From the NCBI RefSeq assembly GCF_009914755.1, contig NC_060926.1: a stretch of 64,000 nt of DNA. One strand, 5' to 3'. Source of the stretch: the human T2T-CHM13v2.0 reference genome, Homo sapiens. Every line of letters begins with the position of its first letter. Position 1 is the first letter of the stretch. Positions 32,400 to 64,000 of this stretch are shown piece after piece. The translations under genes and the position numbers were made by a program. The notes beneath the pieces are model-generated. The model was not told the origin of the DNA. It made no database searches and was given only the letters and a program-made list of their open reading frames with translations.

Positions 32400-33770
<1,371 letters not shown>

Positions 33771-33783
33771 TGAGCCCACTCAC

Positions 33784-33959: not shown

Positions 33960-33960
33960 C

Positions 33961-35370: not shown

Positions 35371-35765
<395 letters not shown>

Positions 35766-36076: not shown

Positions 36077-36351
36077 CATCCTCGGTGACCATTCCCCAAC
36101 CAGATATCCAGCAGGAGCTGTCAGGGGCCAGCCACGTGGTTGGTTCCGGAAGGCAGGCGGGGAGGATGTGGGAGCTGAATTCCACATGACGGTGCAGCTG
36201 CAGCAGGGTGATGTCACTCCCCATGCGGTGCAACTCGTTATAGTCAGCGTGCACCATGATCTTATTCACTGTCATCTGCTTGCTGTGCTCTGTGGGATGG
36301 CTTTGCTGGTCATACCCAAGCAGGATCCGGTAATCAGATGGGTTAGTGGAC
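36077..36351 (-). pseudogene. PRSS40B: PRSS40 exon 3 (catalytic Asp)
   Basis: STNPSDYRILLG...GSDITLLQL...HILPACLP...CWISGWGMVTED; AG and GT sites intact. Confidence 0.93.
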
Positions 36352-37819
36352 CTGTTGTGGGGAGGCTCCTCTGAATGCTGGGCCGGCACCCTCACCCCGG
36401 CTGCCCACCTGGAAGGCACCCAGACCCCACCATCACTCTGGGGTTTCTGTCTCCTCCCTTCCTCGTGTCAGATAGCCCTGCTTTGCTCTTGACACAAGCT
36501 TGAGGGCCTACAGCCTCAGGACACTTGGCCTTGGATGATTCCTGATGGCTTTCCCAGCATGCCCCAGACTCAAAGGAGTAGAGAATCTTAGTGCAGAAAA
36601 CACTGGCGATGCATTACACTTCACCCCTTCATTTCAGAAAAGAAGAGACTTGGCTCATTCCTAGCTCTGACCAGAACCTTCCCAAGGCCCCATGACCTAC
36701 AGCAATTCTCAAAGACCCTGTTTCCCTAGCCAGCATGCTCCACCCACTTCTCCCCGGTTCTCACACACCACCTTCTCCAAGGCTGCCCCACCTGGTGACA
36801 GGAACTCAGTAGGTATTTGTGAAGCACATGGAGGAGTTAATGGAACTGAACTTCTTGTTTCCAGAAAACGAGTGACTTTCCAACCCACAGGTCCTGGCTG
36901 TGTGGTTCTCCTCCCCCAACATGGCTGCATCCACCTCCCCCAAGGCCTCTCCTGCTCTAAGCCCCTGTCTGGCACAGGGTCTACCATGGTCCTGGGCTTG
37001 CGCCTCACTTTCCTGACAGGATGAGAAGCCTCAGAGTGGGGCTTGCATCTCTATGTACCACACAATGGGCCTCACTTGAGGCCTGGCACCTGTGGATGCT
37101 GAATAAATGAGTGGGACCTGAGGAGGATGCTACAGCCAGCTATGTCCAAAGCTCTGGCTTCCTGGCTCAGAATTGGACATCCTCCCTGACTCCCTTTGGG
37201 CACACAGCGAGCCCAGGAAGCATCGGAGGAGTAACTCAGTCTCTTGACCCTCTGCCTCACACCTCCTGGGACAGAGGCCATCTGTTTCATCCCTCACTCT
37301 GGTCTGTGGGGACGGTGGCAAATAATTCTCCAGAAGTGACAAAAACCCCCTGGTGGCTGGACATACAGAGTCGCAGGACCCTTCTGGGGAAGAATGTGCC
37401 AGCATATGTGGGTAGCCAGGACCTAGGGGAGCCTCCGGCAGGTGTTCCCCGGACAGCCTGCAATGAGCCCTGGTTGGAAGGGGCCAGGTGCTCGACCATG
37501 CCTGCCTGGCCCTGAGAAGCCCTGGGACTGTCACTCTGTCTTATCACCTGAAGTGTGTGTCAAGTGTGTGGCCTGGGACACTGCACACCCACTACCATTT
37601 ACACAAGAAAAACCGAGGCCCACTGAGATTGTGTGGATGGCCTAGAGCTGGGCAAGATGCAGAAACCAAAGTTCACCCTGAGGGGAACATTAGGATTTTG
37701 ATTCCTAAAGTTTACAGCAGACGGAGAATGGGCTGGAAGTGGTTCCCTTTAGAACGAAAGTCTGTTTTCCTGTATTTATTGACAGTCCCAACTAGAGTGA
37801 GTTAATTTTCATTTAGCTA

Positions 37820-38425
37820 TTTATTTTATTTTATTTTTGAGACAAGATCTGGCTTTGTGGCCCAGGCTGGAGTGCAGTGGCACAACCACATTTCACTGCA
37901 GCCTCGACCTCCCTGGGCTCAGGTGATCCTCCTGCCTCAGCCTCCTCAGTAGCAGGGACCACAGGCCTGCCCCATCGTACTTGGCTAATTTTTTTATTTT
38001 TAGTAGAGATGGGTTTTGCCATGTTGCCCAGGCTGGTCTTGAACTCTTGGGCTCAAGCAATCCACCTGCCTTGGCCTCCTAAAGTGCTGGGATTACAGGT
38101 GTGAGCCACCGTGACAGGCCTTAACTATTTATTTTTACTTTTAATTATTTACTTATTTTCAGACAGGTCTCATTCTGTCACCCAGGGTGGAGTGCAATGG
38201 TGTGATCACAGTCACTTGCAGCCTTGACCTCCCAGGCTCAAGTGATCCTCCCAAGTAGCTGGGACTACAGGCGCACACCACCAGGCCCGGCTAATTTTTG
38301 TACTTTTTGTAGAGATGAGGTGTCACTATGTTGCCCAGGCTGGTCTGGAATTCCTGGACTCATACAATCCTCCCACCTTAGCCTCCCAAGTACTAGGATT
38401 ACAGGTGTGAGCCATCACACCCGGC
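37820..38425 (-). mobile_element. Two AluJ-like elements (mirror copy 62117-62722, +)
   Basis: Antisense dimers at 37820-38120 and 38130-38425. Confidence 0.85.
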
Positions 38426-38775
38426 TCCATTTAGCTATTTCAAAGTAATGTGCAATGTAATGAGGCAACCACACCATCTTAGCAGGCTGACCAATGTGGT
38501 GTGGGGTGGGGTGGGGTTGGGGAATGCCCAACCCCAGAGTGAGAGATGAGGTAGGAGCCTCTGCTTGGGAGATGCCACACAGTTGGTCAGGAGACTGGAG
38601 CAGAGTGACGAGCAGGGACAGCATTCCAGGCACAGGGCACTGCTGGGTCAAAGGCAGGACACCTGGGGCAGCAAACTGTCCCAGAACAAAGCGTACAAAG
38701 AAAAGACTGCGCCCTCACTTTGGGCTTCCCTCTTGCATGCACTCCCACAGCGGGGCCCGTGGAGGGAAGATGCAT

Positions 38776-38962
38776 CTTTGGAAGCAGTGAGCAGCAGAGG
38801 CCACCCAGTTGCTGTCGATGAGGGCAGCTCCACAGATGTGCCCGCCTAGGTAGAGGAGACTGGCCTGCCATGGCCACCGCTAAGGCTCAGCCCTCTGGCC
38901 TCCAAAGATCTTCCCGGTGGGCCTCCCGGAGGAATTGCCGCTGAATCTGGCCTTCTCACACA
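38776..38962 (-). pseudogene. PRSS40B: PRSS40 exon 2 (activation site and catalytic His)
   Basis: [62 protein letters not shown]; acceptor CCACAG|. Confidence 0.92.
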
Positions 38963-39149
38963 CTGTGGAGACAGCCCAGCAATGAGGTGCCTGCACGAAG
39001 GACGCCAGCCAGCCCCGGGTGCCCCCAAATATCAGGATCAACAGGACTCGGGGCCACCAGGCCCCTCCTCTCACTTCACAGGAGGGACAAGTCCAAGGCT
39101 CAGGTTGAAGCCACGTGGCCCATGTGACAGCACCACCTGGATGACCCGG

Positions 39150-39950
39150 GAGCACACAGCCCATGGCCCCCTGTCAGGGGCGACGGCCCGTGGGGCTACG
39201 GGGTGAGCACTGGGCCCGACTTTTCCCAGGCCTCAATGCCGTTTGTGATGGCGCAGAAGCTGCCTGCTACAGAAGGGATGTACTGCTCCACTGCGCGGCC
39301 CCTAAGCGGCAGTGCCCTCCCTTCCCGGCCCAGTGTTCTCCCAGACTGAAGCGAACGAGAGACAGTCCGCGCACAATCCCGTCTGCAGTAGCATTTCCCC
39401 ATCCTGGAAATGAGGGTGTGTGGGGCGCTGGACTGTAGAGGCCTGAGATCCAACCCGGCAGAGCCAGCGGGGGAGCGCCCCGCCCTCTCCCCTCCTTCCA
39501 AAGGCGCCTTCCTCCCAGGGCCCGGAGAGCCAGACCTGGCCTGGCTGGGCCCTCCTGGCGGGTGTCCTCATCGGGCGGAGGGGGACGGCCACGAGAGGCA
39601 GGCGACCTCTGCTCCTCGCTCTGTCTGGGCCACCCCTGCCCGCTCACCTGCAGAGAGGGACGAGGTGGACTAGACGCGCAGCGGCAGGAGGATTGGCCAG
39701 AGGAGGGAGGCGGCCAGTGCGCAGTGCCCCCGCCGGCCCTGGCCTGAGCGCTCTGCCCCTGCTTCCCTCATCAGGCCGGTGGCCTGGGCGTCCCCGACGG
39801 GGCGGAGAGCGCGGCGCGTGGCCAACCGCGGGGCTCCAGGAAAACGCCTGCGTCCATCAGGATGCTGGGACTGGATCTCGCGCGGCGGGTGCGGGGAGCC
39901 CAGGTCGGTAGGAGGCAGGGGTCGCTGGAAACCCCCAGAGCATCACAGGG
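39150..39950 (-). promoter_or_regulatory. CpG island / probable promoter of PRSS40 (left copy)
   Basis: CpG-dense, GC boxes (GGGGCGG), spans exon 1. Confidence 0.75.
39648..39771 (-). pseudogene. PRSS40B: PRSS40 exon 1 (signal peptide MREAGAERSGQGRRGHCALAASLLWPILLPLRV*STSSLSA)
   Basis: ATG inside a CpG island, hydrophobic stretch, TAG at codon 34, phase-1 donor G|GTGAGC. Confidence 0.75.
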
Positions 39951-40377
39951 CCCCTCCCTCCAGGAAGTCCACTGTGCAGGGGAGACATGAAGGCAACTAT
40001 GGCCCAAGCCCAGAAATATACAGTAATGATGAGAGGGCAAGTGCTTACATCACGTCATCAAGCATTTCCAGCTTGCTTTCCGAGTTCAACCCACTCCTCC
40101 ATAAGGACGCCGGCTCAAGGGATTAGGTCAGGCCCACTAGGGACAATACAATATCCTTTTCTTAAACTCCAGCATACAACAGTCACGAGAGGGCTGTGCC
40201 ATCTCAGTCACAGGTCCCTCCACACTCAACAGGAGGGTCATAGACAACAGCTGAGTGGCAGCGAGTCATCTTAGAATTCTACCTAACACAGCCCAACCTC
40301 CGGCCTCCAGTGACGCATGTCCCTCCCAATCCCCAAAATGCATTCAGCATACCTCAAGGTTACCAAGAGCCTCATCC

Positions 40378-41621
<1,244 letters not shown>

Positions 41622-41629
41622 ATCTCATT

Positions 41630-44312
41630 AGAGTCTCAACTTAAAATTCAAAATCTCATCATCTAAATCTAAATAGAATTATCTCATCAGCTCAAAATCC
41701 ACAATCTCATCATTTAAATACTCCAAATAGAATATGGATGAGGTTCCCAGCTGTAATCTGCTAAACACAGCCCTTGAGTACAATTCTTCCTCACCTGTGG
41801 ACCTATGAAATTAAAGAAACTTCCTACCCCAACATTCTGCACATACAATGACAAGATGGGCACAGCATAATGCTCAAAAGGAAGTTGGGGGAATGGACAG
41901 TGAAAAGCAGTTACTGGTCCGTAACAGCTTTTATATCCTTCTGGACAAACTCCATTAGGTTTCAAGGCCTGGGAGAAAATTCTCTGTGGCTCTCAGCTCT
42001 GGTCATCCTTCCTTTTTTATACAAAGTAGCACGTTTGCATCCAAGTAGTTCTATTGCCTTGCTTCCCGCAAGTGGAATTCTGGGGGCCTTCTTTCATGGT
42101 GTACTTTCCCTGTCCCTGTCAGTATGAGCTGGGAATGTTCTGCTGACATAAACATCTCAAGAACCTCATAGTCCTTGTAAGTGTGTTTCACCAGTTTCAC
42201 TTCATTAGATAAAGTCACATGCACAATATTTTTGAGATAGTCCCTCCTCCACCTGGGCCTCCTGCTGAGATGGCAGCGGGCTTGGGGCCCTCTGTTGTGA
42301 CTATACCTCAATGTCTTGAAAGGGCCCTTTGATCGACTGACTTTTCTGACCTCTTGGTCTTTCTGGGGTCTTAGCAGAACATTATAGTGTCGACCTTTTC
42401 TCTGTGCTGTGGTTTCAGTGACCATCTCTGACTTTTAGCATCTTTTGACATCTGGAGAGGCTAAGAATTTTCAAAACCCTCCAGTCCTGGTTCCTTTTGG
42501 TTTAGCAGTTCTTGCCTCAGTTTATCTCTCTTCCTTCACATTTTGCTATAAGTAGCAAGATGAAACCAGGTAGCACCTCAAAGCGTTGCTTAGAAATCTC
42601 CTAAGCCACATGAAACTGCCTTTGCAAAATTATAACTGTAAGAGAAATCTGACATAGTTGACTCCATCTTGCTTCTGACCTCCAAGCTGTCCTTGGTCAT
42701 TCCTGGGGCTAAGCCAAGCTAACTTTGAGAAGAATTTAGTTTATAGTTTAATTTGAAAGCAAGGATAATAATAGCTCCTCCCGAAAACTAATCCCTTCCT
42801 TGCTCAGGGACTGAAAACCACCTTTGGTAAGACTAACGAAAGGCCACAAGAATAGGATTATGGGAGGGGACTAAATTCTGATAAGGTAGGCATAGTTTCT
42901 ATAATCCCTTACAGCTCAGGAGTCAGATGGCCAGAGGTCACAAGATTTGTGACTCTTCCAATTGCTCCTGTAGATAATGTCACTATTGTAGAACCTAAGA
43001 TCGTTTTTTTTTTTTTAGATTTTTCAGACTGACCCCACCTAGACTTGTGACTCATGACTCAAATGGCCCTGTGACCCCACCCAGAGGTGGACTCAGTGCA
43101 CGGGAACCATTTTCCACACCTCTATAATTTCATCCCCAACCAATCAGCTGCACTTATTCCCTAACCCCCTGTCCATCAATTGTCCATAAAATCCCCTGGC
43201 TTCTGAGCCTTCAGGGAGACCAATTTGAGTGAGAATGCCAGTTCTCCTGTGTGAGCTGGGCTTGGTCAATGAAAGTCTTTCTCTACTGCAACAGCACAGT
43301 CTCAGTAGATTGATTTTGTCTGTGCAGCAGGCAGGAAGAACCTGTCTGGTGATATGTGATTACACATATGTGCAAACAGGCCCCTGAAAGTTTGCTCCCT
43401 ACACAGCAGCTGGACACAATTTCTGCTGTGACGCCACCAGGACCTACCCCGTTTCCAGTGGCATACCCCCCACCTGGTGAGCTCTCAACCATGGAAGCCT
43501 TAAATTCTACATTTCTATGCACAGTCTATCCGAGGAAATAGAGGCTTTCCCTAAGGTAGTTTAAGTTTTTTAAATGAGGTTCCTCAAAATATTTCCAGGC
43601 CCCATCCACTGCCCAGTTCCAAAACTACCGGCATATTTTTAAATGTTTCTTACAGCAGCACCTCATTCCTGGAACCAAAATTCCTATTAGTGTTCTGTTG
43701 CCGTGCAACAAATTGCCACAAACCTCGTGGCTTAAAACAACACAAATATATGACCATGCCATGCCCATGGGTGAGGAGTCTGGCATGGCCCAACTTGGTT
43801 CTCTGCTGAAGGTCTCATGCTCAAGGTGTCGACTGGCCACAAGTTCTCTGAAGGCTCTGCAGAAGAATTTGCCTTCCAGCCCATTTAGGTTGTTGGCAAA
43901 ATTCCGTTTCTTGCAGTTGAATGACTGAGGCACTCATTTGCTTGTTGGGAGCCACTGTCGACTCCTGTAGGCCACTTGGCTGCTTCCCACAGGCCCTCTC
44001 ACAATACCGCAGCTTTCTCCTTCAGGGGTAGCCTCAGGATCTCTTGCATCAAATCCTTCCTAGGCTTTGAATCTTTGACTTCTCCTGTTTGTGACCTCTA
44101 GACCCAGATACAAAGGACTCCCATGATTTGGTCTGAACTTTCAAGGACATCACCCTTCCTTAATCAATAATCTCCCTTTCTTAAAGTGCTATATGGTTAA
44201 CACAGTCACAAGACTGATGGCCCATTATATTCACAGTCCCTCCCACCCTTGTGGGGAGGAATTACATAGGATGTGGGTTGTTGAGGGTTAGCTTAGAATT
44301 CTCCCTACCACA
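41630..44312 (-). mobile_element. MLT1-type MaLR internal remnant and LTR (LTR about 43687-44312), split by LTR8 (mirror about 56230-58912)
   Basis: GTGGCTTAAAACAACACAAAT...CATTATATTCACAGTCCC...CTACCACA resemble an MLT1 LTR; boundaries approximate. Confidence 0.55.
42611..43363 (+). mobile_element. LTR8-family solo LTR
   Basis: Begins TGAAACTGCCTTTGCAAAATTATAACTG, ends ...GATTACA. Confidence 0.8.
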
Positions 44313-44364
44313 GTCTCCTATGAGACAGATTCTGCTAACGCAGACACGAGATGCAGAAAAGTAA

Positions 44365-44885
<521 letters not shown>

Positions 44886-45049
44886 AATTGATGATTTCAA
44901 TGTACTGTGAAAAGAACCAGAATAAACACAGGCAAAAGAGTCTCAAGTTTACACATGGAACAATGGTGTATTTCTAACTTATCTACTTTTATCTACCCTT
45001 TAAAAAATACTTGATCTTTTTATACTCTCTGAACTGTTTCTTTTCTTTG

Positions 45050-46365
<1,316 letters not shown>

Positions 46366-47677
46366 TACTGGAAAAAAGTAATGTGTCCCTCCCCAATATA
46401 GCCAGAGGTGTAGAGGATGAGACTGAGAATTGTATAGGGAAGCTAGAGGGGGTGGGCAACGCAAGAAGTCTGAGGGTGGCCACAGAGGAGGCGCCCGGAG
46501 TGGGGTGCGGAGGTGTCACACAGGGTGGGTGACACTGGGCGGGGCCGAAACACACTAGGCGGGTGGGTGAGGACGAAGGTGGCCTGGCCCCAGGAAGCTG
46601 CAGGAACACTGTCTTCAGGGAGGTGAAAGGGGCTTTGGAGAGCTGGGGTGCTGGAATGCACTGCTAACCATCTGGGCTGTTCCTCAGGCATCCAGGGACC
46701 ACACCTCCCACACCATGTCACCTCACAATCATGCGCATTGTCAGTTTGCAGATGAGGAGCCTGAAGCCAAGGAAAACCCACCTCATGTGGGGAGCATGGG
46801 CATGGGGAGCATGGGCGTGGGCAGGCCTGCTGGCCACCTGCCCCTCTGTGTCCTGCTGCTGGTCCTAAGCACGACCCCTCTTGCCTGGCCCAAGCTGCTC
46901 CCAAGTGAGCGCAGAAGAAAGATATTGTTCAGTCTGGATACGGGACAGGGTTGCCACAGTCACAAGCTGGGTGGGCCTACAGAGTAGGAGGTTCCCAGTG
47001 ACAGCCTGTAGTGCGTGAGCAGAGGTGGGACTCCAGGCAGGCTGTGGGCACCCAGTGGGGCAAGTGCCCTGAAGCCTCACAGCCACCCCTGCACTCCCCC
47101 TCACAGACGAGGTGCCAGCATCACCCAGTGGCACAGTGACCTGCAGGCAGGTTCAGGGCAGCACTGGGCCTCAGCGGAAGGGCTCTGGTGACCAATGCCC
47201 TCACGGCCTCTCTCCACAGGCTCAAGGTGCCAAGGGGCTGTGCTCTCCCATGCCATGCCCTGCATGCCAGACCAGACAGCGCCTTCCTCTTCTCATTGCA
47301 TTCTCACCACCAGATGGTTTTTCCTCTGTCTGTTTTCCAGGAATAAGTTGCTCTGAGCTTGCCACGAGGTGGCAGTGTTAAACTGTTTTATAAGGGCCTA
47401 ATCAGCTTGTAGGCCCGGGACCTAAAATCACAGCCCCAAACCCTGGACTGGTACCTACTGTTCCCTCCATCAGCAGCCTCAGTTTACCTGTGGCTCCCGC
47501 ATCCCCTCCAAGCCATCCACACCACCCCAGACCCGCAGGAGCATCCTGTTTCTCCTCCTCCCCTCGGGAGGGAAAGTTCACTCTTTCTGGGAATCCCTTT
47601 AGCGCTCAGTGGGGACTTTCGAGTTCCCCCCTCTCTTCCTCTGTGGGTCCCCGGGTGTGCCAACCACCTTTCTCACT

Positions 47678-47761
47678 GTATTCATCAGTGTTCTCCAGAG
47701 GCAGAGAACTAATAGGAGATATATATATATCTCCTATATATATATATAAAATATATAAAAC

Positions 47762-47812
<51 letters not shown>

Positions 47813-48322
47813 GGAATTTATTGAGAATTGACTCCTTTATTAAGGAGAATTGACTCACGTGATCACAAGGTGAAGTCCCATGATAGGCCATCTGCAAGCT
47901 GAGGATCACGGAAGCCAGTAGTGGCTTAGTCTGAGTCCAAAAACCTCAAAAGTAGGGAAGCCAACAGTGCAGCCTTAAGTCTGTGGCCGAAGGCCCGAGA
48001 ACCCCTGGCAAACCACTGGTGTAGGTCCGAGAGTCCAAAAGCTGAAGAACTAGGAGCCTGATATGCAAGAGCGTGAAGCATTCAGCACGGAAGAAGGATG
48101 AAGGCCAGGAGACCCAGCAAGTCAGCTTCTTCCACCTTCTTCTGCCTGCTTTTTCTAGCCACACTGGCAGCCTACTGGATGGTGCTCACCCACATTACAG
48201 GTGGGTCTTCCTCTCCCAGTCCACTGACTCAAATGTTAATCTCTGCTGGCAACACCCAGAAACAGCCAGAAACAATACTTTGCATCCTTCAATCCAATCA
48301 AGTTGACACTTAATATTAACCA
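47678..48322 (-). mobile_element. MLT2 (ERVL) LTR containing (TA)n
   Basis: TGTATTCATCAGTGTTCTCCAGAGG...CAATCAAGTTGACACTTAATATTAACCA. Confidence 0.82.
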
Positions 48323-49739: not shown

Positions 49740-50803
<1,064 letters not shown>

Positions 50804-52220
50804 TAGATATAAATATATTTACATGTAAACATATATTACATATTGTATACATTTTTTAACACAGCAAAGCCTCTCACATACAGTTACAGACCCCTTTGTC
50901 ACCATCCTCTGGCCTATTCTCTCCCTCCCTGCACAGTATCCACCCTGAAGTTACTGTATCTTCCTCCTGCCCATATTTTTGAACTTTTGCTGCAAATACA
51001 TGGTCCCTGAACTATATATAGCATTTATTCTATATTTGGTATGGTTGCTTCATTCTACTGCTGGCATTTTCCACTCAACATCCCACCTTCCGGGCCAACG
51101 CTGTTGCCATTCACAGGCCTAGTTCATTCTATGAAAATGCTCTACAGCGTTCCCTTCTCTGGGCACCTCACCACTTATTTCTCCGCTGCTCCTTGATGGA
51201 TGTTTTTGCTTTTTTCCAGTCTTACAAGCAGGGCAGTGACAAGGTTGCTAGGTGGAGTCTGAATGTTCACCTAGGATGTTTCTCTAGCAGGAGGAATCAC
51301 ATGGTCAGCTGTACGAGATGCGCCGTGTTGCCCTCCACAGCATCCACCCTACACTCCCCAGCAGCGTGTGAGAAGGCCCTGCTGGAGTGGTCACGGGACC
51401 CTCAGAGGAGCCTAGGCCCTACAGGGTGGGCCGGTCTCCCGTCAAGTGCTGTGAGGTTTGCTAAGTTCATTCAGGCACCACTTTGGAGGTGGACCCTCGG
51501 CACTGAGGAGGAGGCGGGTTCTTGTTTGGATCTAGATGTGTTGCGTTGTAGGTAGCATAAGGAGCTGTGTTCCCCTCCTGGTCATGTGGTAGGACAGCCA
51601 TCTGTTGTCACCATCCCTGTAGCACCAGCACATCTGATGCCAGCAGGAGTGGACAGCCTCACTTCTCCAGGTGTCTTCACCTGCCACTTACTGGAACCTG
51701 CTCTGTCAAGGCAGGCACTGAAGGTTTCTTCAAATATAGCTGAGACAGGGAAGGGATGCTTTGCCTTCAACACCAGTGACCCGAGTCCTCTGGAACTATG
51801 TCCAAAGAATAAGAGCACTTTCCTCTCTCAGACAGCATGCAGGCAGGGTAGCGGCACCCCTCACTCTCAACATAGAATGGAACATAGTCTGTGCCCCTGT
51901 AGATGATCTGAAGGCATCAGGGGACCATGTGACACCAACCTCAGTCTCAGACGGGAGGCCCTGCACAGGGGTGCGCAGTGTGAGATGGCGCCTCTCAACC
52001 CTGCCCCTCTGTTCTTCCTGATCCTGCAACAACATCTCTCTGGAATGGCAGTCACTGCCTTCCTCCAGCCTCATCACCATGGCTGGGGAGGAGGAGGCAG
52101 TCACAGAGGCCTCAGAGAGCAACATCTCCCACTGCCCATGCCGTCAGCAACACAAGTGAGACGTGGCCTCTGCCCCAACAGTGCTTGCAGAGCAGCGGGG
52201 AAGGTGAGTGTGGTGGTTAG

Positions 52221-52729
52221 TGGTTAATATTAAGTGTCAACTTGATTGGATTGAAGGATGCAAAGTATTGTTTCTGGCTGTTTCTGGGTGTTGCCAGCAG
52301 AGATTAACATTTGAGTCAGTGGACTGGGAGAGGAAGACCCACCTGTAATGTGGGTGAGCACCATCCAGTAGGCTGCCAGTGTGGCTAGAAAAAGCAGGCA
52401 GAAGAAGGTGGAAGAAGCTGACTTGCTGGGTCTCCTGGCCTTCATCCTTCTTCCGTGCTGAATGCTTCACGCTCTTGCATATCAGGCTCCTAGTTCTTCA
52501 GCTTTTGGACTCTCGGACCTACACCAGTGGTTTGCCAGGGGTTCTCGGGCCTTCGGCCACAGACTTAAGGCTGCACTGTTGGCTTCCCTACTTTTGAGGT
52601 TTTTGGACTCAGACTAAGCCACTACTGGCTTCCGTGATCCTCAGCTTGCAGATGGCCTATCATGGGACTTCACCTTGTGATCACGTGAGTCAATTCTCCT
52701 TAATAAAGGAGTCAATTCTCAATAAATTC

Positions 52730-52781
<52 letters not shown>

Positions 52782-52865
52782 GTTTTATATATTTTATATA
52801 TATATATAGGAGATATATATATATCTCCTATTAGTTCTCTGCCTCTGGAGAACACTGATGAATAC
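52221..52865 (+). mobile_element. MLT2 LTR with (TA)n, mirror copy
   Basis: Mirror of 47678-48322. Confidence 0.82.
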
Positions 52866-54177
52866 AGTGAGAAAGGTGGTTGGCACACCCGGGGACCCAC
52901 AGAGGAAGAGAGGGGGGAACTCGAAAGTCCCCACTGAGCGCTAAAGGGATTCCCAGAAAGAGTGAACTTTCCCTCCCGAGGGGAGGAGGAGAAACAGGAT
53001 GCTCCTGCGGGTCTGGGGTGGTGTGGATGGCTTGGAGGGGATGCGGGAGCCACAGGTAAACTGAGGCTGCTGATGGAGGGAACAGTAGGTACCAGTCCAG
53101 GGTTTGGGGCTGTGATTTTAGGTCCCGGGCCTACAAGCTGATTAGGCCCTTATAAAACAGTTTAACACTGCCACCTCGTGGCAAGCTCAGAGCAACTTAT
53201 TCCTGGAAAACAGACAGAGGAAAAACCATCTGGTGGTGAGAATGCAATGAGAAGAGGAAGGCGCTGTCTGGTCTGGCATGCAGGGCATGGCATGGGAGAG
53301 CACAGCCCCTTGGCACCTTGAGCCTGTGGAGAGAGGCCGTGAGGGCATTGGTCACCAGAGCCCTTCCGCTGAGGCCCAGTGCTGCCCTGAACCTGCCTGC
53401 AGGTCACTGTGCCACTGGGTGATGCTGGCACCTCGTCTGTGAGGGGGAGTGCAGGGGTGGCTGTGAGGCTTCAGGGCACTTGCCCCACTGGGTGCCCACA
53501 GCCTGCCTGGAGTCCCACCTCTGCTCACGCACTACAGGCTGTCACTGGGAACCTCCTACTCTGTAGGCCCACCCAGCTTGTGACTGTGGCAACCCTGTCC
53601 CGTATCCAGACTGAACAATATCTTTCTTCTGCGCTCACTTGGGAGCAGCTTGGGCCAGGCAAGAGGGGTCGTGCTTAGGACCAGCAGCAGGACACAGAGG
53701 GGCAGGTGGCCAGCAGGCCTGCCCACGCCCATGCTCCCCATGCCCATGCTCCCCACATGAGGTGGGTTTTCCTTGGCTTCAGGCTCCTCATCTGCAAACT
53801 GACAATGCGCATGATTGTGAGGTGACATGGTGTGGGAGGTGTGGTCCCTGGATGCCTGAGGAACAGCCCAGATGGTTAGCAGTGCATTCCAGCACCCCAG
53901 CTCTCCAAAGCCCCTTTCACCTCCCTGAAGACAGTGTTCCTGCAGCTTCCTGGGGCCAGGCCACCTTCGTCCTCACCCACCCGCCTAGTGTGTTTCGGCC
54001 CCGCCCAGTGTCACCCACCCTGTGTGACACCTCCGCACCCCACTCCGGGCGCCTCCTCTGTGGCCACCCTCAGACTTCTTGCGTTGCCCACCCCCTCTAG
54101 CTTCCCTATACAATTCTCAGTCTCATCCTCTACACCTCTGGCTATATTGGGGAGGGACACATTACTTTTTTCCAGTA

Positions 54178-55493
<1,316 letters not shown>

Positions 55494-55835
55494 CAAAGAA
55501 AAGAAACAGTTCAGAGAGTATAAAAAGATCAAGTATTTTTTAAAGGGTAGATAAAAGTAGATAAGTTAGAAATACACCATTGTTCCATGTGTAAACTTGA
55601 GACTCTTTTGCCTGTGTTTATTCTGGTTCTTTTCACAGTACATTGAAATCATCAATTGGTCAGGTGCAGTGGTTCACTCCTGTAATCCCAGCACTTTAGG
55701 AGGCCGAGGTAGGTGGATCACATGAGGTCAGGAGTTCAAGACCAGCCTTGAACCCAGGACCCAGGAAGCAGAGGTTGCAGTGAGCCGAGATTGCACCATT
55801 GCACCCCAGTCTGGGCTACAAGAGTGAAACTATTA

Positions 55836-56177
<342 letters not shown>

Positions 56178-57178
56178 TTACTTTTCTGCATCTCGTGTCT
56201 GCGTTAGCAGAATCTGTCTCATAGGAGACTGTGGTAGGGAGAATTCTAAGCTAACCCTCAACAACCCACATCCTATGTAATTCCTCCCCACAAGGGTGGG
56301 AGGGACTGTGAATATAATGGGCCATCAGTCTTGTGACTGTGTTAACCATATAGCACTTTAAGAAAGGGAGATTATTGATTAAGGAAGGGTGATGTCCTTG
56401 AAAGTTCAGACCAAATCATGGGAGTCCTTTGTATCTGGGTCTAGAGGTCACAAACAGGAGAAGTCAAAGATTCAAAGCCTAGGAAGGATTTGATGCAAGA
56501 GATCCTGAGGCTACCCCTGAAGGAGAAAGCTGCGGTATTGTGAGAGGGCCTGTGGGAAGCAGCCAAGTGGCCTACAGGAGTCGACAGTGGCTCCCAACAA
56601 GCAAATGAGTGCCTCAGTCATTCAACTGCAAGAAACGGAATTTTGCCAACAACCTAAATGGGCTGGAAGGCAAATTCTTCTGCAGAGCCTTCAGAGAACT
56701 TGTGGCCAGTCGACACCTTGAGCATGAGACCTTCAGCAGAGAACCAAGTTGGGCCATGCCAGACTCCTCACCCATGGGCATGGCATGGTCATATATTTGT
56801 GTTGTTTTAAGCCACGAGGTTTGTGGCAATTTGTTGCACGGCAACAGAACACTAATAGGAATTTTGGTTCCAGGAATGAGGTGCTGCTGTAAGAAACATT
56901 TAAAAATATGCCGGTAGTTTTGGAACTGGGCAGTGGATGGGGCCTGGAAATATTTTGAGGAACCTCATTTAAAAAACTTAAACTACCTTAGGGAAAGCCT
57001 CTATTTCCTCGGATAGACTGTGCATAGAAATGTAGAATTTAAGGCTTCCATGGTTGAGAGCTCACCAGGTGGGGGGTATGCCACTGGAAACGGGGTAGGT
57101 CCTGGTGGCGTCACAGCAGAAATTGTGTCCAGCTGCTGTGTAGGGAGCAAACTTTCAGGGGCCTGTTTGCACATATGT

Positions 57179-57931
57179 GTAATCACATATCACCAGACAG
57201 GTTCTTCCTGCCTGCTGCACAGACAAAATCAATCTACTGAGACTGTGCTGTTGCAGTAGAGAAAGACTTTCATTGACCAAGCCCAGCTCACACAGGAGAA
57301 CTGGCATTCTCACTCAAATTGGTCTCCCTGAAGGCTCAGAAGCCAGGGGATTTTATGGACAATTGATGGACAGGGGGTTAGGGAATAAGTGCAGCTGATT
57401 GGTTGGGGATGAAATTATAGAGGTGTGGAAAATGGTTCCCGTGCACTGAGTCCACCTCTGGGTGGGGTCACAGGGCCATTTGAGTCATGAGTCACAAGTC
57501 TAGGTGGGGTCAGTCTGAAAAATCTAAAAAAAAAAAAACGATCTTAGGTTCTACAATAGTGACATTATCTACAGGAGCAATTGGAAGAGTCACAAATCTT
57601 GTGACCTCTGGCCATCTGACTCCTGAGCTGTAAGGGATTATAGAAACTATGCCTACCTTATCAGAATTTAGTCCCCTCCCATAATCCTATTCTTGTGGCC
57701 TTTCGTTAGTCTTACCAAAGGTGGTTTTCAGTCCCTGAGCAAGGAAGGGATTAGTTTTCGGGAGGAGCTATTATTATCCTTGCTTTCAAATTAAACTATA
57801 AACTAAATTCTTCTCAAAGTTAGCTTGGCTTAGCCCCAGGAATGACCAAGGACAGCTTGGAGGTCAGAAGCAAGATGGAGTCAACTATGTCAGATTTCTC
57901 TTACAGTTATAATTTTGCAAAGGCAGTTTCA
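57179..57931 (-). mobile_element. LTR8-family solo LTR, mirror copy
   Basis: Mirror of 42611-43363. Confidence 0.8.
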
Positions 57932-58920
57932 TGTGGCTTAGGAGATTTCTAAGCAACGCTTTGAGGTGCTACCTGGTTTCATCTTGCTACTTATAGCAAA
58001 ATGTGAAGGAAGAGAGATAAACTGAGGCAAGAACTGCTAAACCAAAAGGAACCAGGACTGGAGGGTTTTGAAAATTCTTAGCCTCTCCAGATGTCAAAAG
58101 ATGCTAAAAGTCAGAGATGGTCACTGAAACCACAGCACAGAGAAAAGGTCGACACTATAATGTTCTGCTAAGACCCCAGAAAGACCAAGAGGTCAGAAAA
58201 GTCAGTCGATCAAAGGGCCCTTTCAAGACATTGAGGTATAGTCACAACAGAGGGCCCCAAGCCCGCTGCCATCTCAGCAGGAGGCCCAGGTGGAGGAGGG
58301 ACTATCTCAAAAATATTGTGCATGTGACTTTATCTAATGAAGTGAAACTGGTGAAACACACTTACAAGGACTATGAGGTTCTTGAGATGTTTATGTCAGC
58401 AGAACATTCCCAGCTCATACTGACAGGGACAGGGAAAGTACACCATGAAAGAAGGCCCCCAGAATTCCACTTGCGGGAAGCAAGGCAATAGAACTACTTG
58501 GATGCAAACGTGCTACTTTGTATAAAAAAGGAAGGATGACCAGAGCTGAGAGCCACAGAGAATTTTCTCCCAGGCCTTGAAACCTAATGGAGTTTGTCCA
58601 GAAGGATATAAAAGCTGTTACGGACCAGTAACTGCTTTTCACTGTCCATTCCCCCAACTTCCTTTTGAGCATTATGCTGTGCCCATCTTGTCATTGTATG
58701 TGCAGAATGTTGGGGTAGGAAGTTTCTTTAATTTCATAGGTCCACAGGTGAGGAAGAATTGTACTCAAGGGCTGTGTTTAGCAGATTACAGCTGGGAACC
58801 TCATCCATATTCTATTTGGAGTATTTAAATGATGAGATTGTGGATTTTGAGCTGATGAGATAATTCTATTTAGATTTAGATGATGAGATTTTGAATTTTA
58901 AGTTGAGACTCTAATGAGAT

Positions 58921-60164
<1,244 letters not shown>

Positions 60165-60589
60165 GGATGAGGCTCTTGGTAACCTTGAGGTATGCTGAAT
60201 GCATTTTGGGGATTGGGAGGGACATGCGTCACTGGAGGCCGGAGGTTGGGCTGTGTTAGGTAGAATTCTAAGATGACTCGCTGCCACTCAGCTGTTGTCT
60301 ATGACCCTCCTGTTGAGTGTGGAGGGACCTGTGACTGAGATGGCACAGCCCTCTCGTGACTGTTGTATGCTGGAGTTTAAGAAAAGGATATTGTATTGTC
60401 CCTAGTGGGCCTGACCTAATCCCTTGAGCCGGCGTCCTTATGGAGGAGTGGGTTGAACTCGGAAAGCAAGCTGGAAATGCTTGATGACGTGATGTAAGCA
60501 CTTGCCCTCTCATCATTACTGTATATTTCTGGGCTTGGGCCATAGTTGCCTTCATGTCTCCCCTGCACAGTGGACTTCCTGGAGGGAGG

Positions 60590-61390
60590 GGCCCTGTGAT
60601 GCTCTGGGGGTTTCCAGCGACCCCTGCCTCCTACCGACCTGGGCTCCCCGCACCCGCCGCGCGAGATCCAGTCCCAGCATCCTGATGGACGCAGGCGTTT
60701 TCCTGGAGCCCCGCGGTTGGCCACGCGCCGCGCTCTCCGCCCCGTCGGGGACGCCCAGGCCACCGGCCTGATGAGGGAAGCAGGGGCAGAGCGCTCAGGC
60801 CAGGGCCGGCGGGGGCACTGCGCACTGGCCGCCTCCCTCCTCTGGCCAATCCTCCTGCCGCTGCGCGTCTAGTCCACCTCGTCCCTCTCTGCAGGTGAGC
60901 GGGCAGGGGTGGCCCAGACAGAGCGAGGAGCAGAGGTCGCCTGCCTCTCGTGGCCGTCCCCCTCCGCCCGATGAGGACACCCGCCAGGAGGGCCCAGCCA
61001 GGCCAGGTCTGGCTCTCCGGGCCCTGGGAGGAAGGCGCCTTTGGAAGGAGGGGAGAGGGCGGGGCGCTCCCCCGCTGGCTCTGCCGGGTTGGATCTCAGG
61101 CCTCTACAGTCCAGCGCCCCACACACCCTCATTTCCAGGATGGGGAAATGCTACTGCAGACGGGATTGTGCGCGGACTGTCTCTCGTTCGCTTCAGTCTG
61201 GGAGAACACTGGGCCGGGAAGGGAGGGCACTGCCGCTTAGGGGCCGCGCAGTGGAGCAGTACATCCCTTCTGTAGCAGGCAGCTTCTGCGCCATCACAAA
61301 CGGCATTGAGGCCTGGGAAAAGTCGGGCCCAGTGCTCACCCCGTAGCCCCACGGGCCGTCGCCCCTGACAGGGGGCCATGGGCTGTGTGC
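60590..61390 (+). promoter_or_regulatory. CpG island / probable promoter of PRSS40 (right copy)
   Basis: Mirror of 39150-39950. Confidence 0.75.
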
Positions 61391-64000
61391 TCCCGGGTCA
61401 TCCAGGTGGTGCTGTCACATGGGCCACGTGGCTTCAACCTGAGCCTTGGACTTGTCCCTCCTGTGAAGTGAGAGGAGGGGCCTGGTGGCCCCGAGTCCTG
61501 TTGATCCTGATATTTGGGGGCACCCGGGGCTGGCTGGCGTCCTTCGTGCAGGCACCTCATTGCTGGGCTGTCTCCACAGTGTGTGAGAAGGCCAGATTCA
61601 GCGGCAATTCCTCCGGGAGGCCCACCGGGAAGATCTTTGGAGGCCAGAGGGCTGAGCCTTAGCGGTGGCCATGGCAGGCCAGTCTCCTCTACCTAGGCGG
61701 GCACATCTGTGGAGCTGCCCTCATCGACAGCAACTGGGTGGCCTCTGCTGCTCACTGCTTCCAAAGATGCATCTTCCCTCCACGGGCCCCGCTGTGGGAG
61801 TGCATGCAAGAGGGAAGCCCAAAGTGAGGGCGCAGTCTTTTCTTTGTACGCTTTGTTCTGGGACAGTTTGCTGCCCCAGGTGTCCTGCCTTTGACCCAGC
61901 AGTGCCCTGTGCCTGGAATGCTGTCCCTGCTCGTCACTCTGCTCCAGTCTCCTGACCAACTGTGTGGCATCTCCCAAGCAGAGGCTCCTACCTCATCTCT
62001 CACTCTGGGGTTGGGCATTCCCCAACCCCACCCCACCCCACACCACATTGGTCAGCCTGCTAAGATGGTGTGGTTGCCTCATTACATTGCACATTACTTT
62101 GAAATAGCTAAATGGAGCCGGGTGTGATGGCTCACACCTGTAATCCTAGTACTTGGGAGGCTAAGGTGGGAGGATTGTATGAGTCCAGGAATTCCAGACC
62201 AGCCTGGGCAACATAGTGACACCTCATCTCTACAAAAAGTACAAAAATTAGCCGGGCCTGGTGGTGTGCGCCTGTAGTCCCAGCTACTTGGGAGGATCAC
62301 TTGAGCCTGGGAGGTCAAGGCTGCAAGTGACTGTGATCACACCATTGCACTCCACCCTGGGTGACAGAATGAGACCTGTCTGAAAATAAGTAAATAATTA
62401 AAAGTAAAAATAAATAGTTAAGGCCTGTCACGGTGGCTCACACCTGTAATCCCAGCACTTTAGGAGGCCAAGGCAGGTGGATTGCTTGAGCCCAAGAGTT
62501 CAAGACCAGCCTGGGCAACATGGCAAAACCCATCTCTACTAAAAATAAAAAAATTAGCCAAGTACGATGGGGCAGGCCTGTGGTCCCTGCTACTGAGGAG
62601 GCTGAGGCAGGAGGATCACCTGAGCCCAGGGAGGTCGAGGCTGCAGTGAAATGTGGTTGTGCCACTGCACTCCAGCCTGGGCCACAAAGCCAGATCTTGT
62701 CTCAAAAATAAAATAAAATAAATAGCTAAATGAAAATTAACTCACTCTAGTTGGGACTGTCAATAAATACAGGAAAACAGACTTTCGTTCTAAAGGGAAC
62801 CACTTCCAGCCCATTCTCCGTCTGCTGTAAACTTTAGGAATCAAAATCCTAATGTTCCCCTCAGGGTGAACTTTGGTTTCTGCATCTTGCCCAGCTCTAG
62901 GCCATCCACACAATCTCAGTGGGCCTCGGTTTTTCTTGTGTAAATGGTAGTGGGTGTGCAGTGTCCCAGGCCACACACTTGACACACACTTCAGGTGATA
63001 AGACAGAGTGACAGTCCCAGGGCTTCTCAGGGCCAGGCAGGCATGGTCGAGCACCTGGCCCCTTCCAACCAGGGCTCATTGCAGGCTGTCCGGGGAACAC
63101 CTGCCGGAGGCTCCCCTAGGTCCTGGCTACCCACATATGCTGGCACATTCTTCCCCAGAAGGGTCCTGCGACTCTGTATGTCCAGCCACCAGGGGGTTTT
63201 TGTCACTTCTGGAGAATTATTTGCCACCGTCCCCACAGACCAGAGTGAGGGATGAAACAGATGGCCTCTGTCCCAGGAGGTGTGAGGCAGAGGGTCAAGA
63301 GACTGAGTTACTCCTCCGATGCTTCCTGGGCTCGCTGTGTGCCCAAAGGGAGTCAGGGAGGATGTCCAATTCTGAGCCAGGAAGCCAGAGCTTTGGACAT
63401 AGCTGGCTGTAGCATCCTCCTCAGGTCCCACTCATTTATTCAGCATCCACAGGTGCCAGGCCTCAAGTGAGGCCCATTGTGTGGTACATAGAGATGCAAG
63501 CCCCACTCTGAGGCTTCTCATCCTGTCAGGAAAGTGAGGCGCAAGCCCAGGACCATGGTAGACCCTGTGCCAGACAGGGGCTTAGAGCAGGAGAGGCCTT
63601 GGGGGAGGTGGATGCAGCCATGTTGGGGGAGGAGAACCACACAGCCAGGACCTGTGGGTTGGAAAGTCACTCGTTTTCTGGAAACAAGAAGTTCAGTTCC
63701 ATTAACTCCTCCATGTGCTTCACAAATACCTACTGAGTTCCTGTCACCAGGTGGGGCAGCCTTGGAGAAGGTGGTGTGTGAGAACCGGGGAGAAGTGGGT
63801 GGAGCATGCTGGCTAGGGAAACAGGGTCTTTGAGAATTGCTGTAGGTCATGGGGCCTTGGGAAGGTTCTGGTCAGAGCTAGGAATGAGCCAAGTCTCTTC
63901 TTTTCTGAAATGAAGGGGTGAAGTGTAATGCATCGCCAGTGTTTTCTGCACTAAGATTCTCTACTCCTTTGAGTCTGGGGCATGCTGGGAAAGCCATCAG
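60771..64000 (+). pseudogene. PRSS40A: Second PRSS40 pseudogene copy: exon 1 (60771-60894), exon 2 (61580-61766) and part of intron 2; continues beyond the window
   Basis: Reverse complement of the left copy, with the same TAG stops (60870-60872, 61660-61662) and the same AT donor at 61767. Confidence 0.9.

What the first reader, a model, noticed from the sequence alone, without database searches (positions are those of the whole stretch)
36542..64000. Centre of a giant, almost perfect palindrome (arms of at least 13.3 kb, 908-bp spacer)
Seen: 36542-49817 is the reverse complement of 50726-64000. From the mirrored ORFs and spot checks I found only two differences: T17 at 44692-44708 vs A16 at 55835-55850, and one substitution at 47809/52734 at the edge of the (TA)n. 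The constant coordinate offset implies other long poly(A) tracts are length-matched. Known: CFC1 and CFC1B are an inverted pair at 2q21.1. Inference: if symmetry continues, the second Cryptic ATG lies near window coordinate 89195 on -, giving arms of at least 38 kb. Such identity suggests a very recent origin or ongoing arm-to-arm gene conversion, as in Y and X palindromes, here on an autosome and around a left-right patterning gene.
Basis: partly seen in the sequence, partly recalled or inferred. Interest (0 to 1): 0.8.

Follow-up and report, generated by a model that had tools for sequence, protein, structure and literature searches.

The report
Human chromosome 2 CFC1/CFC1B giant palindrome
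The window holds the centre of a real 319-kb mirror-image duplication on human chromosome 2 that was made in one step by copying 159 kb backwards into a single Alu element, and whose inner 51 kb, carrying the two Cryptic genes, was later made almost identical again.

Summary
Window 36542-49817 is the reverse complement of 50726-64000, with one T17/T16 length difference and one substitution. With flanking DNA from the same assembly, the arms are 158,365 and 159,367 nt (window -108547..49817 and 50726..210092) around a 908-nt, mostly Alu spacer.

Identity has two tiers. The outer part differs by about 0.5%. The inner 50,940 nt differ by 3 substitutions and 4 homopolymer lengths. The step lies inside a 111-nt tandem array in POTE exon 1, where the arms differ by one unit.

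The right arm is one inverted copy inserted into a single Alu. A 71-nt stretch of that Alu brackets the arm, its 31-mer occurs exactly twice in the genome, and the Alu's own 10-nt target-site duplication sits 159 kb apart. The inner block is therefore as old as the outer arms, and its near-identity reflects later arm-to-arm homogenisation, not recent origin.

The locus is a known human-specific segmental duplication, with copy number 4 in 259 of 259 people. It is a new documented member of a known kind. Interest is moderate.

The parts
1..49817 (.). Left arm, the part inside the window. The whole arm is window -108547..49817, 158,365 nt. It carries POTEI (outside the window), CFC1B and PRSS40B. 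Structurally it is the ancestral copy. The near-perfect inner block runs from window -1122 (outside the window) to 49817. Its outer end lies in a 111-nt tandem array of POTEI exon 1 at window -1273..-955, with 2.9 copies, against 1.9 copies at 101499-101705 in POTEJ.
   Evidence: megablast of left half against right half; probes at -72 kb and -90 kb; outer end; ancestral status; tandem arrays, in agreement with the cysteine-repeat counts of 3 and 2 in Table 2 of PMC7073761
49818..50725 (.). Asymmetric spacer, 908 nt, 46% G+C, mostly Alu sequence
50726..64000 (.). Right arm, the part inside the window. The whole arm is window 50726..210092, 159,367 nt. It carries PRSS40A, CFC1 and POTEJ. It is the derived, inserted inverted copy.
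49784..50066 (+). AluL, a full-length Alu. Arm identity stops 34 nt into its left monomer, after CCTGTAATCCCAGC at 49804-49817.
   Evidence: alignment; Metazoa_SRP-like matches 49784-49900 and 49919-50066; more than 150 genomic matches of 250-280 nt at 87-93% identity
50248..50529 (-). A second Alu inside the spacer, inverted relative to AluL
   Evidence: Metazoa_SRP-like matches 50248-50370 and 50399-50529 on the minus strand; genomic matches to spacer positions 420-714
50603..50725 (-). AluR, 3' piece: A-tail and most of the right monomer of a different Alu. It is 82% identical (110 of 134) to AluL's right monomer, so it is not a copy of AluL. Its 5' piece lies outside the window at 210093-210312.
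50669..50739 (+). A 71-nt stretch repeated exactly, in direct orientation, at window 210088-210158. It consists of 5 nt (CACTG) shared with the outer end of the arm, 52 nt found only in AluR, and 14 nt (GCTGGGATTACAGG) shared with AluL. It brackets the whole right arm.
   Evidence: a 31-mer from it occurs exactly 2 times in the 3.1-Gb assembly, with 0 control hits
50595..50604 (+). AluR's own target-site duplication, AATTAATCTT. The second copy is at window 210313-210322, just beyond the Alu head on the far side of the right arm.
11059..18469 (+). CFC1B. Its mirror CFC1 is at 82073-89483 on the minus strand. The coding sequences are identical, and the gene spans differ only at 13226, in an intron.
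   Evidence: with exon coordinates from the hub's annotation table
3542..3542 (.). Arm-to-arm substitution, 1 of 3 in the inner block. The other two are at 13226 and 47809.
44692..44708 (.). T17 against A16 at 55835-55850. This is one of 4 homopolymer length differences; the others are at -665, 24679 and 24977. All four could be consensus errors.

Best explanation
The window holds the centre of a 318.6-kb inverted segmental duplication at 2q21.1. It carries POTEI-CFC1B-PRSS40B on one side, a spacer, and PRSS40A-CFC1-POTEJ on the other.

Origin. Shown: the right arm is a single inverted copy of the left arm, sitting inside one Alu (AluR). The ancestral order was left arm, AluL(+), about 0.5 kb, AluR(-), and then the sequence now found at window 210093 onward. 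Inferred: during replication or break repair, a growing strand left AluR at the 14-nt motif it shares with the inverted AluL about 0.9 kb away. It then copied the arm backwards for 159 kb and returned to AluR through a 5-nt microhomology, 52 nt behind the point where it had left. That is a fold-back or template-switch event of the FoSTeS/MMBIR type. It happened of the order of 1.6-2.4 million years ago.

Later history. Inferred: the 50.9 kb next to the spacer was made identical again by non-reciprocal transfer between the arms of one chromosome. This most likely took one or a few long-tract events (gap repair or break-induced copying) in the ancestry of this haplotype, within roughly the last 12-170 thousand years. 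The transfer ran from the spacer outward until the first structural mismatch, a one-unit length difference in the 111-nt repeat of POTE exon 1. Shorter conversions also occur further out.

The consequence is that CFC1 and CFC1B behave as one four-copy locus.
For: - Structure. The inverted homology is continuous from the spacer to window -108547 and 210092. A probe at -120 kb finds nothing on the right side.
- One-step origin. The centre junction joins AluL nt 1-34 to the right monomer of a different Alu. The 71-nt exact direct repeat 50669-50739 = 210088-210158 brackets the arm. Its 31-mer occurs 2 times in 3.1 Gb, with 0 control hits. The 10-nt target-site duplication AATTAATCTT lies beside the Alu tail at 50595 and beside the Alu head at 210313. 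The two Alu pieces overlap by 52 nt and add up to one full-length element.
- Two tiers of identity. The outer block has 230 mismatches in 47,362 columns. The probes show 8 of 1502 and 9 of 1500. The inner block has 3 substitutions in 50,940 nt, with P(<=3) about 1e-101 at the outer rate.
- Position of the step. It lies inside the 111-nt array, 2.9 against 1.9 copies.
- Independent conversion tract. Window -12017..-6035 in the outer arm has 1 substitution where about 29 are expected. The expectation is my arithmetic.
- Age against identity. POTEI/POTEJ are dated to 1.57 Mya as a human-specific duplication (PMC7073761, passages). With 3 substitutions the inner arms coalesce at about 59 ky (12-172 ky) at 0.5e-9 per year. 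P(<=3) is 1.7e-4 if they had been separate for 300 ky.
- Population data. Copy-number mode is 4 in a fraction of 1.0 of 259 unrelated people, 52 of them African. Median pairwise divergence among all CFC1/CFC1B haplotypes is 2.34e-4, and the 90th percentile is 1.875e-3 (Supplementary Data 1 of PMC11890787). None of 14 reference paralog-specific variants is a fixed difference (PMC13475201, passage).
Against: - Only one haplotype was examined, so conversion is inferred from a pattern and not observed.
- The step lies only about 1.5 kb outside the edge of the multi-copy POTE duplicon, which ends near window +347. That coincidence would also fit a separate, later copying of the two-copy block.
- A 51-kb tract is far longer than ordinary gene-conversion tracts (general knowledge). 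It is not explained why the outer arms, still 99.5% identical, have not been homogenised as well.
- The four homopolymer differences may be consensus errors.
- Human specificity and the dating rest on the literature, because no ape sequence was available here.
- Dennis et al. 2017, the primary description of this duplication, could not be read. It may already contain parts of this account.
Confidence: 0.72

Rival explanations
1. Two-step origin. Inverted POTE blocks already flanked a single-copy CFC1-PRSS40 segment. The 51-kb segment was then copied backwards only recently (tens of thousands of years ago) by Alu fold-back priming, and the event was resolved by annealing inside the pre-existing POTE homology.
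For: The near-perfect block is almost exactly the part that exists in only two copies in the genome: window 348-49817, plus 1.5 kb of the POTE edge. The centre junction is an Alu-Alu hybrid of the kind fold-back priming would leave.
Against: Both ends of the whole 159-kb right arm lie within 52 nt of each other in one Alu, whose own target-site duplication still flanks the two pieces. Two independent events would both have had to strike the same 300-nt element. Copy number is 4 in 259 of 259 people from five ancestries, and a tenth of haplotype pairs differ by at least 0.19%. That depth is too great for a copy only 12-172 ky old.
Confidence: 0.08
2. Steady high-rate short-tract conversion, as in Y-chromosome palindromes. 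On this reading the inner block sits at a mutation-conversion equilibrium maintained by many small events, not by one or a few long tracts.
For: The inner divergence of 5.9e-5 is in the range I recall for Y palindromes. None of 14 paralog-specific variants is fixed. The median pooled divergence of 2.34e-4 is like that of X palindromes in the same table, for example SSX2 at 2.44e-4 and CENPVL2 at 2.25e-4. A separate short tract exists in the outer arm.
Against: It does not by itself explain an 80-fold change in divergence within a few tens of bases, while the outer arms keep 99.5% identity. The 14 reference differences in about 7.4 kb, against 1 difference in this haplotype, suggest that haplotypes differ in how recently they were homogenised. 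That inference assumes the two reference arms come from one haplotype, which I could not check.
Confidence: 0.15
3. Assembly artefact. Either a fold-back join created a false second arm, or the two arms were given one shared consensus so that true differences were erased.
For: Arms that are nearly identical over 51 kb exceed the read length of accurate long reads. Four of the seven differences are homopolymer lengths, which are error-prone.
Against: The outer 108 kb of the same arms differ by about 0.5% and by repeat copy numbers. The spacer is asymmetric, and the right arm has its own unique outer junction. Independent long-read data give copy number 4 in 259 of 259 people. Both genes are annotated in two reference assemblies (the hub's table; GRCh38 coordinates). 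A false phase would move differences between arms but would not remove them (inference).
Confidence: 0.03
4. The whole palindrome is very young, and the 0.5% divergence of the outer arms was imported by conversion from the other POTE-block paralogs on chromosome 2, which are 91-96% identical.
For: Such paralogs exist at C2:130.44, 130.55, 131.65, 131.76 and 132.03 Mb. Two 2.5-kb bins in the outer arm are enriched in substitutions, with 25 and 36.
Against: Substitutions are spread evenly: 7-18 per 2.5 kb in 17 of the 20 outer bins. Two distant probes show the same level, 0.53% and 0.60%. Imported tracts from donors 4-9% diverged would be patchy. Fixation at copy number 4 and the deep haplotype pairs argue against youth. 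POTEI/POTEJ have been dated to 1.57 Mya.
Confidence: 0.02

Closest known systems
Large near-identical palindromes of the human Y (P1-P8) and X chromosomes
   Same: Both have head-to-head arms of tens to hundreds of kb, over 99% identity, an asymmetric spacer and invariant copy number. Pooled paralog diversity is as low as in X palindromes. Genes with testis-linked names (PRSS40, POTE) lie in the arms; expression was not tested here.
   Different: This one is autosomal and, according to the literature, human-specific, whereas many X palindromes are conserved for 25 million years. Near-identity covers only the inner third of each arm and has a sharp step. The spacer is very short, at 908 nt.
Human-specific segmental duplications (the CFC1 and TISP43/PRSS40 families of Dennis et al. 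2017)
   Same: This is that locus. Two papers citing Dennis et al. name CFC1 and TISP43 among the human-specific duplicated families. The difficulty of telling CFC1 from CFC1B is well known.
   Different: None of the papers I could search or read describe the palindrome's anatomy, the split-Alu origin or the two-tier identity. The primary paper itself was not available, so this may be partly in print.
Replicative inverted duplications by template switching at inverted repeats (fold-back inversion, FoSTeS/MMBIR, Alu-Alu mediated rearrangement)
   Same: One junction lies in a pair of inverted Alus about 0.9 kb apart, with 14 nt of shared sequence. The second junction has 5 nt of microhomology. 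The copy sits in place with a 52-nt duplication of the target.
   Different: Those mechanisms are known mainly from disease alleles, tumours and yeast (for example PMC7467729, search listing only). Here the product is a fixed, 159-kb evolutionary duplication. The Alu-Alu switch is out of register, left monomer to right monomer.
Interlocus gene conversion between segmental duplications
   Same: It involves non-reciprocal homogenisation of paralogs, and paralog-specific variants are shared or not fixed (titles and abstracts).
   Different: The inferred tract of 50.9 kb is far longer than typical conversion tracts (general knowledge), and it is bounded by the spacer on one side and a repeat-length mismatch on the other.

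Membership tests
Large near-identical palindrome (criteria as I recall them from Warburton 2004 and Jackson 2021: arms over 8 kb, over 99% identity, spacer under 500 kb) | Two arms in inverted orientation on one chromosome | tested here: met
Large near-identical palindrome | Arm length over 8 kb | tested here: met
   158,365 and 159,367 nt
Large near-identical palindrome | Arm-to-arm identity over 99% | tested here: met
   99.994% over the inner 50.9 kb. 99.36% over 47.4 kb of the POTE part. 99.3-99.4% in two outer probes. Only a tandem array at -60..-50 kb falls to 96.7-97.7%.
Large near-identical palindrome | Spacer short relative to the arms | tested here: met
   908 nt
Large near-identical palindrome | Identity maintained by arm-to-arm gene conversion | tested here: inconclusive
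   The one-step origin combined with an 80-fold step in divergence, and a 6-kb tract in the outer arm, imply it. Published population summaries fit. No direct cis-versus-trans or cross-species test was possible.
Human-specific segmental duplication | Duplicated segment of at least 1 kb at 90% identity or more | tested here: met
   Window 1-6000 has exactly one other full-length match in the genome.
Human-specific segmental duplication | Single copy in other apes | not testable with these tools
   No ape genome was held. The claim is stated in PMC13475201 and PMC11725983, both citing Dennis 2017, and in PMC7073761 for POTEI/J.
Human-specific segmental duplication | Duplicated state fixed in humans | not testable with these tools
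   From the literature: copy-number mode 4 in a fraction of 1.0 of 259 people.
Template-switch or fold-back inverted duplication (FoSTeS/MMBIR, Alu-mediated) | Breakpoint junctions with microhomology or homeology | tested here: met
   14 nt (GCTGGGATTACAGG) at the centre and 5 nt (CACTG) at the outer junction
Template-switch or fold-back inverted duplication | Inverted copy adjacent to its source, with the spacer equal to the distance between the switch points | tested here: met
Template-switch or fold-back inverted duplication | Return to the original template near the point of departure | tested here: met
   52 nt of AluR are duplicated on both sides of the insert. The Alu's target-site duplication is preserved at 50595 and 210313. 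The 31-mer occurs 2 times in the genome.
Template-switch or fold-back inverted duplication | Replicative rather than breakage-and-ligation origin | not testable with these tools
   Inferred from the junction anatomy only

The most novel reading that the evidence does not exclude
An autosomal, human-specific palindrome contains a sharply bounded identity domain. On this reading, homogenisation between the arms starts at the 0.9-kb centre and is stopped by a one-unit length difference in a coding tandem repeat (POTE exon 1). The left-right patterning gene pair CFC1/CFC1B is therefore kept as a single four-copy locus, while the outer two thirds of the same arms diverge freely. If the domain is episodically reset by 50-kb tracts that differ between haplotypes, this would be a tractable natural system. 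It would allow long-tract intrachromosomal repair and the heterology barriers that limit it to be measured in the human germ line.
Probability: 0.35. Interest if true: 0.6.

Novelty: new member of a known kind. Interest (0 to 1): 0.42.

Why it matters
CFC1 is listed as a heterotaxy gene, yet it cannot be told apart from CFC1B. In this haplotype the two coding sequences are identical. Knowing that the pair sits in the homogenised inner domain of a palindrome explains why no fixed paralog-specific variant exists. It also explains why variants must be called as a four-copy locus.

The structural signature shows that the arm carrying the gene named CFC1 is the derived copy. The signature is one Alu split by a 159-kb inverted insert, with its target-site duplication intact. 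It also gives a simple empty-site test for ape and archaic genomes.

The two-tier identity, with a step at a repeat-length mismatch, offers a natural experiment on how far arm-to-arm repair can run and what stops it. A 159-kb inverted repeat with a 0.9-kb spacer is also a likely substrate for inversion and isodicentric-type rearrangements.

Tried and rejected
I used smaller requests instead and one genome search. As a result the left arm between -60 kb and -108.5 kb was sampled by two 1.5-kb probes and one 6-kb match, not read through.
- Genome searches with the right-hand pieces L018, L017 and L022 were swamped by high-copy repeats and did not even list the query's own place. They say nothing about the arms.
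- I first read the shared alignment end at query position 6092 for three paralogs as an old duplicon edge. I rejected that: the query was the right arm, so every alignment must stop where the right arm stops.
- I tested whether the right-hand hybrid Alu is a copy of AluL with an internal deletion, and rejected it. Its right monomer is only 82% identical to AluL's.
- Literature. No paper holds both CFC1B and palindrome. CFC1B with gene conversion gave only PMC13475201. CFC1 with palindrom* and segmental duplication gave 3 papers, of which 2 were listed, and neither calls this locus a palindrome. Of the 37 papers listed out of 41 that mention CFC1B, I opened three. One of them calls the genes 'tandemly duplicated', which the sequence contradicts.
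- Dennis 2017, Warburton 2004 and Sudmant 2010 were not held. The last id was recalled and may be wrong.
- One search was badly framed and mostly useless.
- Table S9 of PMC13475201 is in a PDF that could not be read.
That part is now folded into the description of the left arm.

Full report
OBSERVATION. Window 36542-49817 (13,276 nt) is the reverse complement of 50726-64000 (13,275 nt). There are two differences: T17 at 44692-44708 against A16 at 55835-55850, and a substitution at 47809/52734 at the edge of a (TA)n run. From 36542 to 44691 there is no mismatch at a constant coordinate sum of 100542. The spacer is 49818-50725, 908 nt.

EXTENT. The window's own assembly was available. I fetched 200 kb to the right, 60 kb to the left and three 1.5-kb probes further left.

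A megablast of the left half against the right half gives three blocks:
- Window -1162..49850 pairs with 101705..50693 at 99.959%.
- Window -2826..-1067 pairs with 103254..101499 at 98.24%.
- Window -49999..-2689 pairs with 150513..103175 at 99.358% (230 mismatches and 21 gap openings in 47,362 columns).

Beyond that, several further pieces place the outer ends:
- Window -59999..-50000 pairs with 150514..161574 through a tandem array at 96.7-97.7%.
- Probes at -71999..-70500 and -89999..-88500 match the mirrored places at 99.33% (8 mismatches) and 99.40% (9 mismatches).
- A probe at -119999..-118500 matches nothing on the right side.
- A genome search with window 204001-214000 matches C2:130835453-130841538 on the minus strand over query positions 1-6092 only.

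The arms are therefore window -108547..49817 (158,365 nt) and 50726..210092 (159,367 nt), and the whole structure is 318.6 kb. The stretch between -60 kb and -108.5 kb was sampled, not read through. The hub's gene table fits: CFC1B/CFC1 and the far ends of PRSS40B/A mirror at a sum of 100542, and POTEI/POTEJ lie in the outer arms.

TWO TIERS OF IDENTITY. Between window -1122 and 49817 (50,940 nt) the arms differ by 3 substitutions (3542, 13226, 47809) and 4 homopolymer lengths (-665, 24679, 24977, 44708). Outside that block, 2.5-kb bins hold 7-36 substitutions, apart from one empty bin.

At the outer rate, about 247 substitutions would be expected in the inner block, and P(<=3) is about 1e-101. 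The step is abrupt: six mismatches lie within -1154..-1123, and then none until 3542.

The step lies inside a 111-nt tandem array. That array has 2.9 copies on the left (-1273..-955) and 1.9 copies on the right (101499-101705). These are the cysteine-rich repeats of POTE exon 1; Table 2 of PMC7073761 lists 3 for POTEI and 2 for POTEJ.

Homology with other POTE paralogs (91-93%) reaches to about window +347. Window 348-6000 has just one other copy in the genome, which is the mirror. The near-perfect block is thus the two-copy CFC1-PRSS40 segment plus 1.5 kb of the POTE edge.

In the outer arm, -12017..-6035 holds a single substitution where about 29 are expected. The expectation is my arithmetic. 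I read this as a separate conversion tract.

GENES. The six coding exons of CFC1B and their mirror are identical (672 nt, 223 residues). The two 7,411-nt gene spans differ only at 13226, in an intron.

THE CENTRE. The spacer is mostly Alu. It holds three elements:
- AluL(+), at 49784-50066.
- A second Alu(-), at 50248-50529.
- The 3' part of a third Alu(-), AluR, at 50603-50725.

Arm identity stops 34 nt into AluL's left monomer, after CCTGTAATCCCAGC. On the right side the sequence continues as an Alu right monomer that is only 82% identical (110 of 134) to AluL's own right monomer. The junction is therefore a hybrid of two different Alus, joined out of register at a motif that both monomers carry.

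THE OUTER JUNCTION AND THE ORIGIN. Immediately outside the right arm lies the rest of that same Alu. Three results show this:
- Window 50669-50739 is repeated exactly, in direct orientation, at 210088-210158. The 71 nt comprise 5 nt shared with the arm's outer end, 52 nt of AluR only, and 14 nt shared with AluL.
- A 31-mer from it, which carries private changes from the usual Alu sequence, occurs exactly twice in the 3.1-Gb assembly, with 0 control hits.
- AluR's own target-site duplication, AATTAATCTT, lies beside its A-tail at 50595-50604 and beside its head at 210313-210322.

The two pieces overlap by 52 nt and add up to one full-length Alu. It follows that the left arm, the spacer and the sequence from 210093 onward were once contiguous. 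It also follows that the whole right arm is one inverted copy inserted into a single Alu.

The simplest mechanism is inferred, not shown. A growing strand switched from AluR to the inverted AluL 0.9 kb away, through 14 nt of shared sequence. It copied 159 kb backwards. It then switched back through 5 nt of microhomology, 52 nt behind where it had left.

Structurally, the arm carrying the gene named CFC1 is the derived one. Later exchange between the arms blurs that label for the inner block.

AGE AND HOMOGENISATION. Both ends of the arm lie in one Alu, so the inner 51 kb was duplicated together with the outer 108 kb.
- The outer divergence of 0.49% corresponds to about 2.4 My at 1e-9 per site per year.
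- PMC7073761 dates the POTEI/POTEJ duplication to 1.57 Mya and calls it human-specific (passages).
- The inner block's 3 substitutions correspond to about 59 ky (12-172 ky) at 0.5e-9, or 29 ky (6-86 ky) at 1e-9.

The inner block must therefore have been made identical again long after the duplication. Published data agree:
- In 259 unrelated people from five ancestries, the CFC1/CFC1B group has copy-number mode 4 in a fraction of 1.0.
- In the same data, the median pairwise haplotype divergence is 2.34e-4 and the 90th percentile is 1.875e-3 (Supplementary Data 1 and methods of PMC11890787).
- None of 14 reference paralog-specific variants is a fixed difference between the genes (PMC13475201, passage).

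A copy made only tens of thousands of years ago could be neither fixed nor contain pairs 0.19% apart.

What I cannot decide from one haplotype is how the block arose. It could be the product of one or a few long tracts, such as gap repair or break-induced copying that runs from the spacer to the first structural mismatch. It could also be the product of steady short conversions confined by that mismatch. I favour the long-tract reading because of the sharpness of the step, and because the reference genome is reported to carry 14 differences in about 7.4 kb where this haplotype has one.

ARTEFACT. A false fold-back is excluded. The outer arms are diverged, the spacer is asymmetric, and the right arm has its own unique outer junction. 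Independent long-read data give copy number 4. The four homopolymer differences may be consensus errors.

WHAT IS KNOWN. The locus is a published human-specific segmental duplication. CFC1 and TISP43/PRSS40 are named as duplicated families in Dennis et al. 2017. I could not read that paper and know of it only through two citing papers. The near-identity of CFC1 and CFC1B is a known obstacle to variant calling.

Large palindromes kept alike by arm-to-arm conversion are well described on the X and Y chromosomes. The Paraphase paper states that 16.8% of its autosomal paralog groups are palindromic.

In the papers I could search, nothing describes this locus as a palindrome, the split-Alu origin or the identity step. 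One preprint calls the genes tandemly duplicated, which the sequence contradicts. Supplements in PDF form and the papers not held may bear on this.

VERDICT. This is a real, very large autosomal palindrome that is a new documented member of a known kind. The added value is the one-step Alu-templated origin and the sharply bounded homogenised domain. Interest is moderate.

Noticed in passing
G000:C2:130440444-130446514 (-) and C2:131755096-131761164 (+), found with window 204001-210092: Two further copies of the outermost 6 kb of the arms, at 96% identity. They lie outside the palindrome on either side and in mirrored orientation. The POTE blocks on 2q21.1 therefore form a nested, older inverted pair around the younger one.
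   Followed up: partly
window -59999..-50000 and 150514..161574 (L034, L017-L018): A satellite-like tandem array inside both arms, with many internal offsets of about 0.6-1.2 kb. It has 86-93% matches on chromosomes 2, 4, 9, 13, 14, 15, 18, 20, 21 and 22. Arm-to-arm identity drops to 96.7-97.7% here.
   Followed up: partly
window -12017..-6035 (L030/L029): A 6-kb patch of the outer arm (POTEI/POTEJ) with a single arm-to-arm substitution in a region that averages 0.49%. It is probably a separate conversion tract.
   Followed up: partly
window -5000..-2500 and -22500..-20000: Two 2.5-kb bins with 36 and 25 substitutions, against 7-18 elsewhere. These could be conversion from other POTE paralogs or misaligned repeats.
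   Followed up: no
window -39054..-12316 against 112813..139568: Secondary inverted matches at 88-91%, offset by about 14 kb from the main diagonal. They fit the internal duplication of POTE exons 6-9 described in PMC7073761.
   Followed up: no
window 53026-54158 and 58936-59437: RefSeq enhancer features are annotated only on the right arm. Their mirror places on the left arm (about 46384-47516 and 41105-41606) are identical in sequence apart from the one-base T-run offset.
   Followed up: no
window 49784-50066 with 50248-50529: Inside the spacer, AluL and the second Alu form an inverted pair only about 180 nt apart. The truly unpaired centre is therefore shorter than 908 nt.
   Followed up: no
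window 194001-214000 (L022, L023): Query positions 1-6217 of window 194001-204000 match chromosomes 14 and 22 at 94%. Pieces of window 204001-214000 match chr12:29.15 Mb at 86-88%, and query positions 7965-9998 of window 194001-204000 match chr12:29.15 Mb at 83%. The chr12 matches would fit the FAR2-derived pseudogene named in the hub's table.
   Followed up: no
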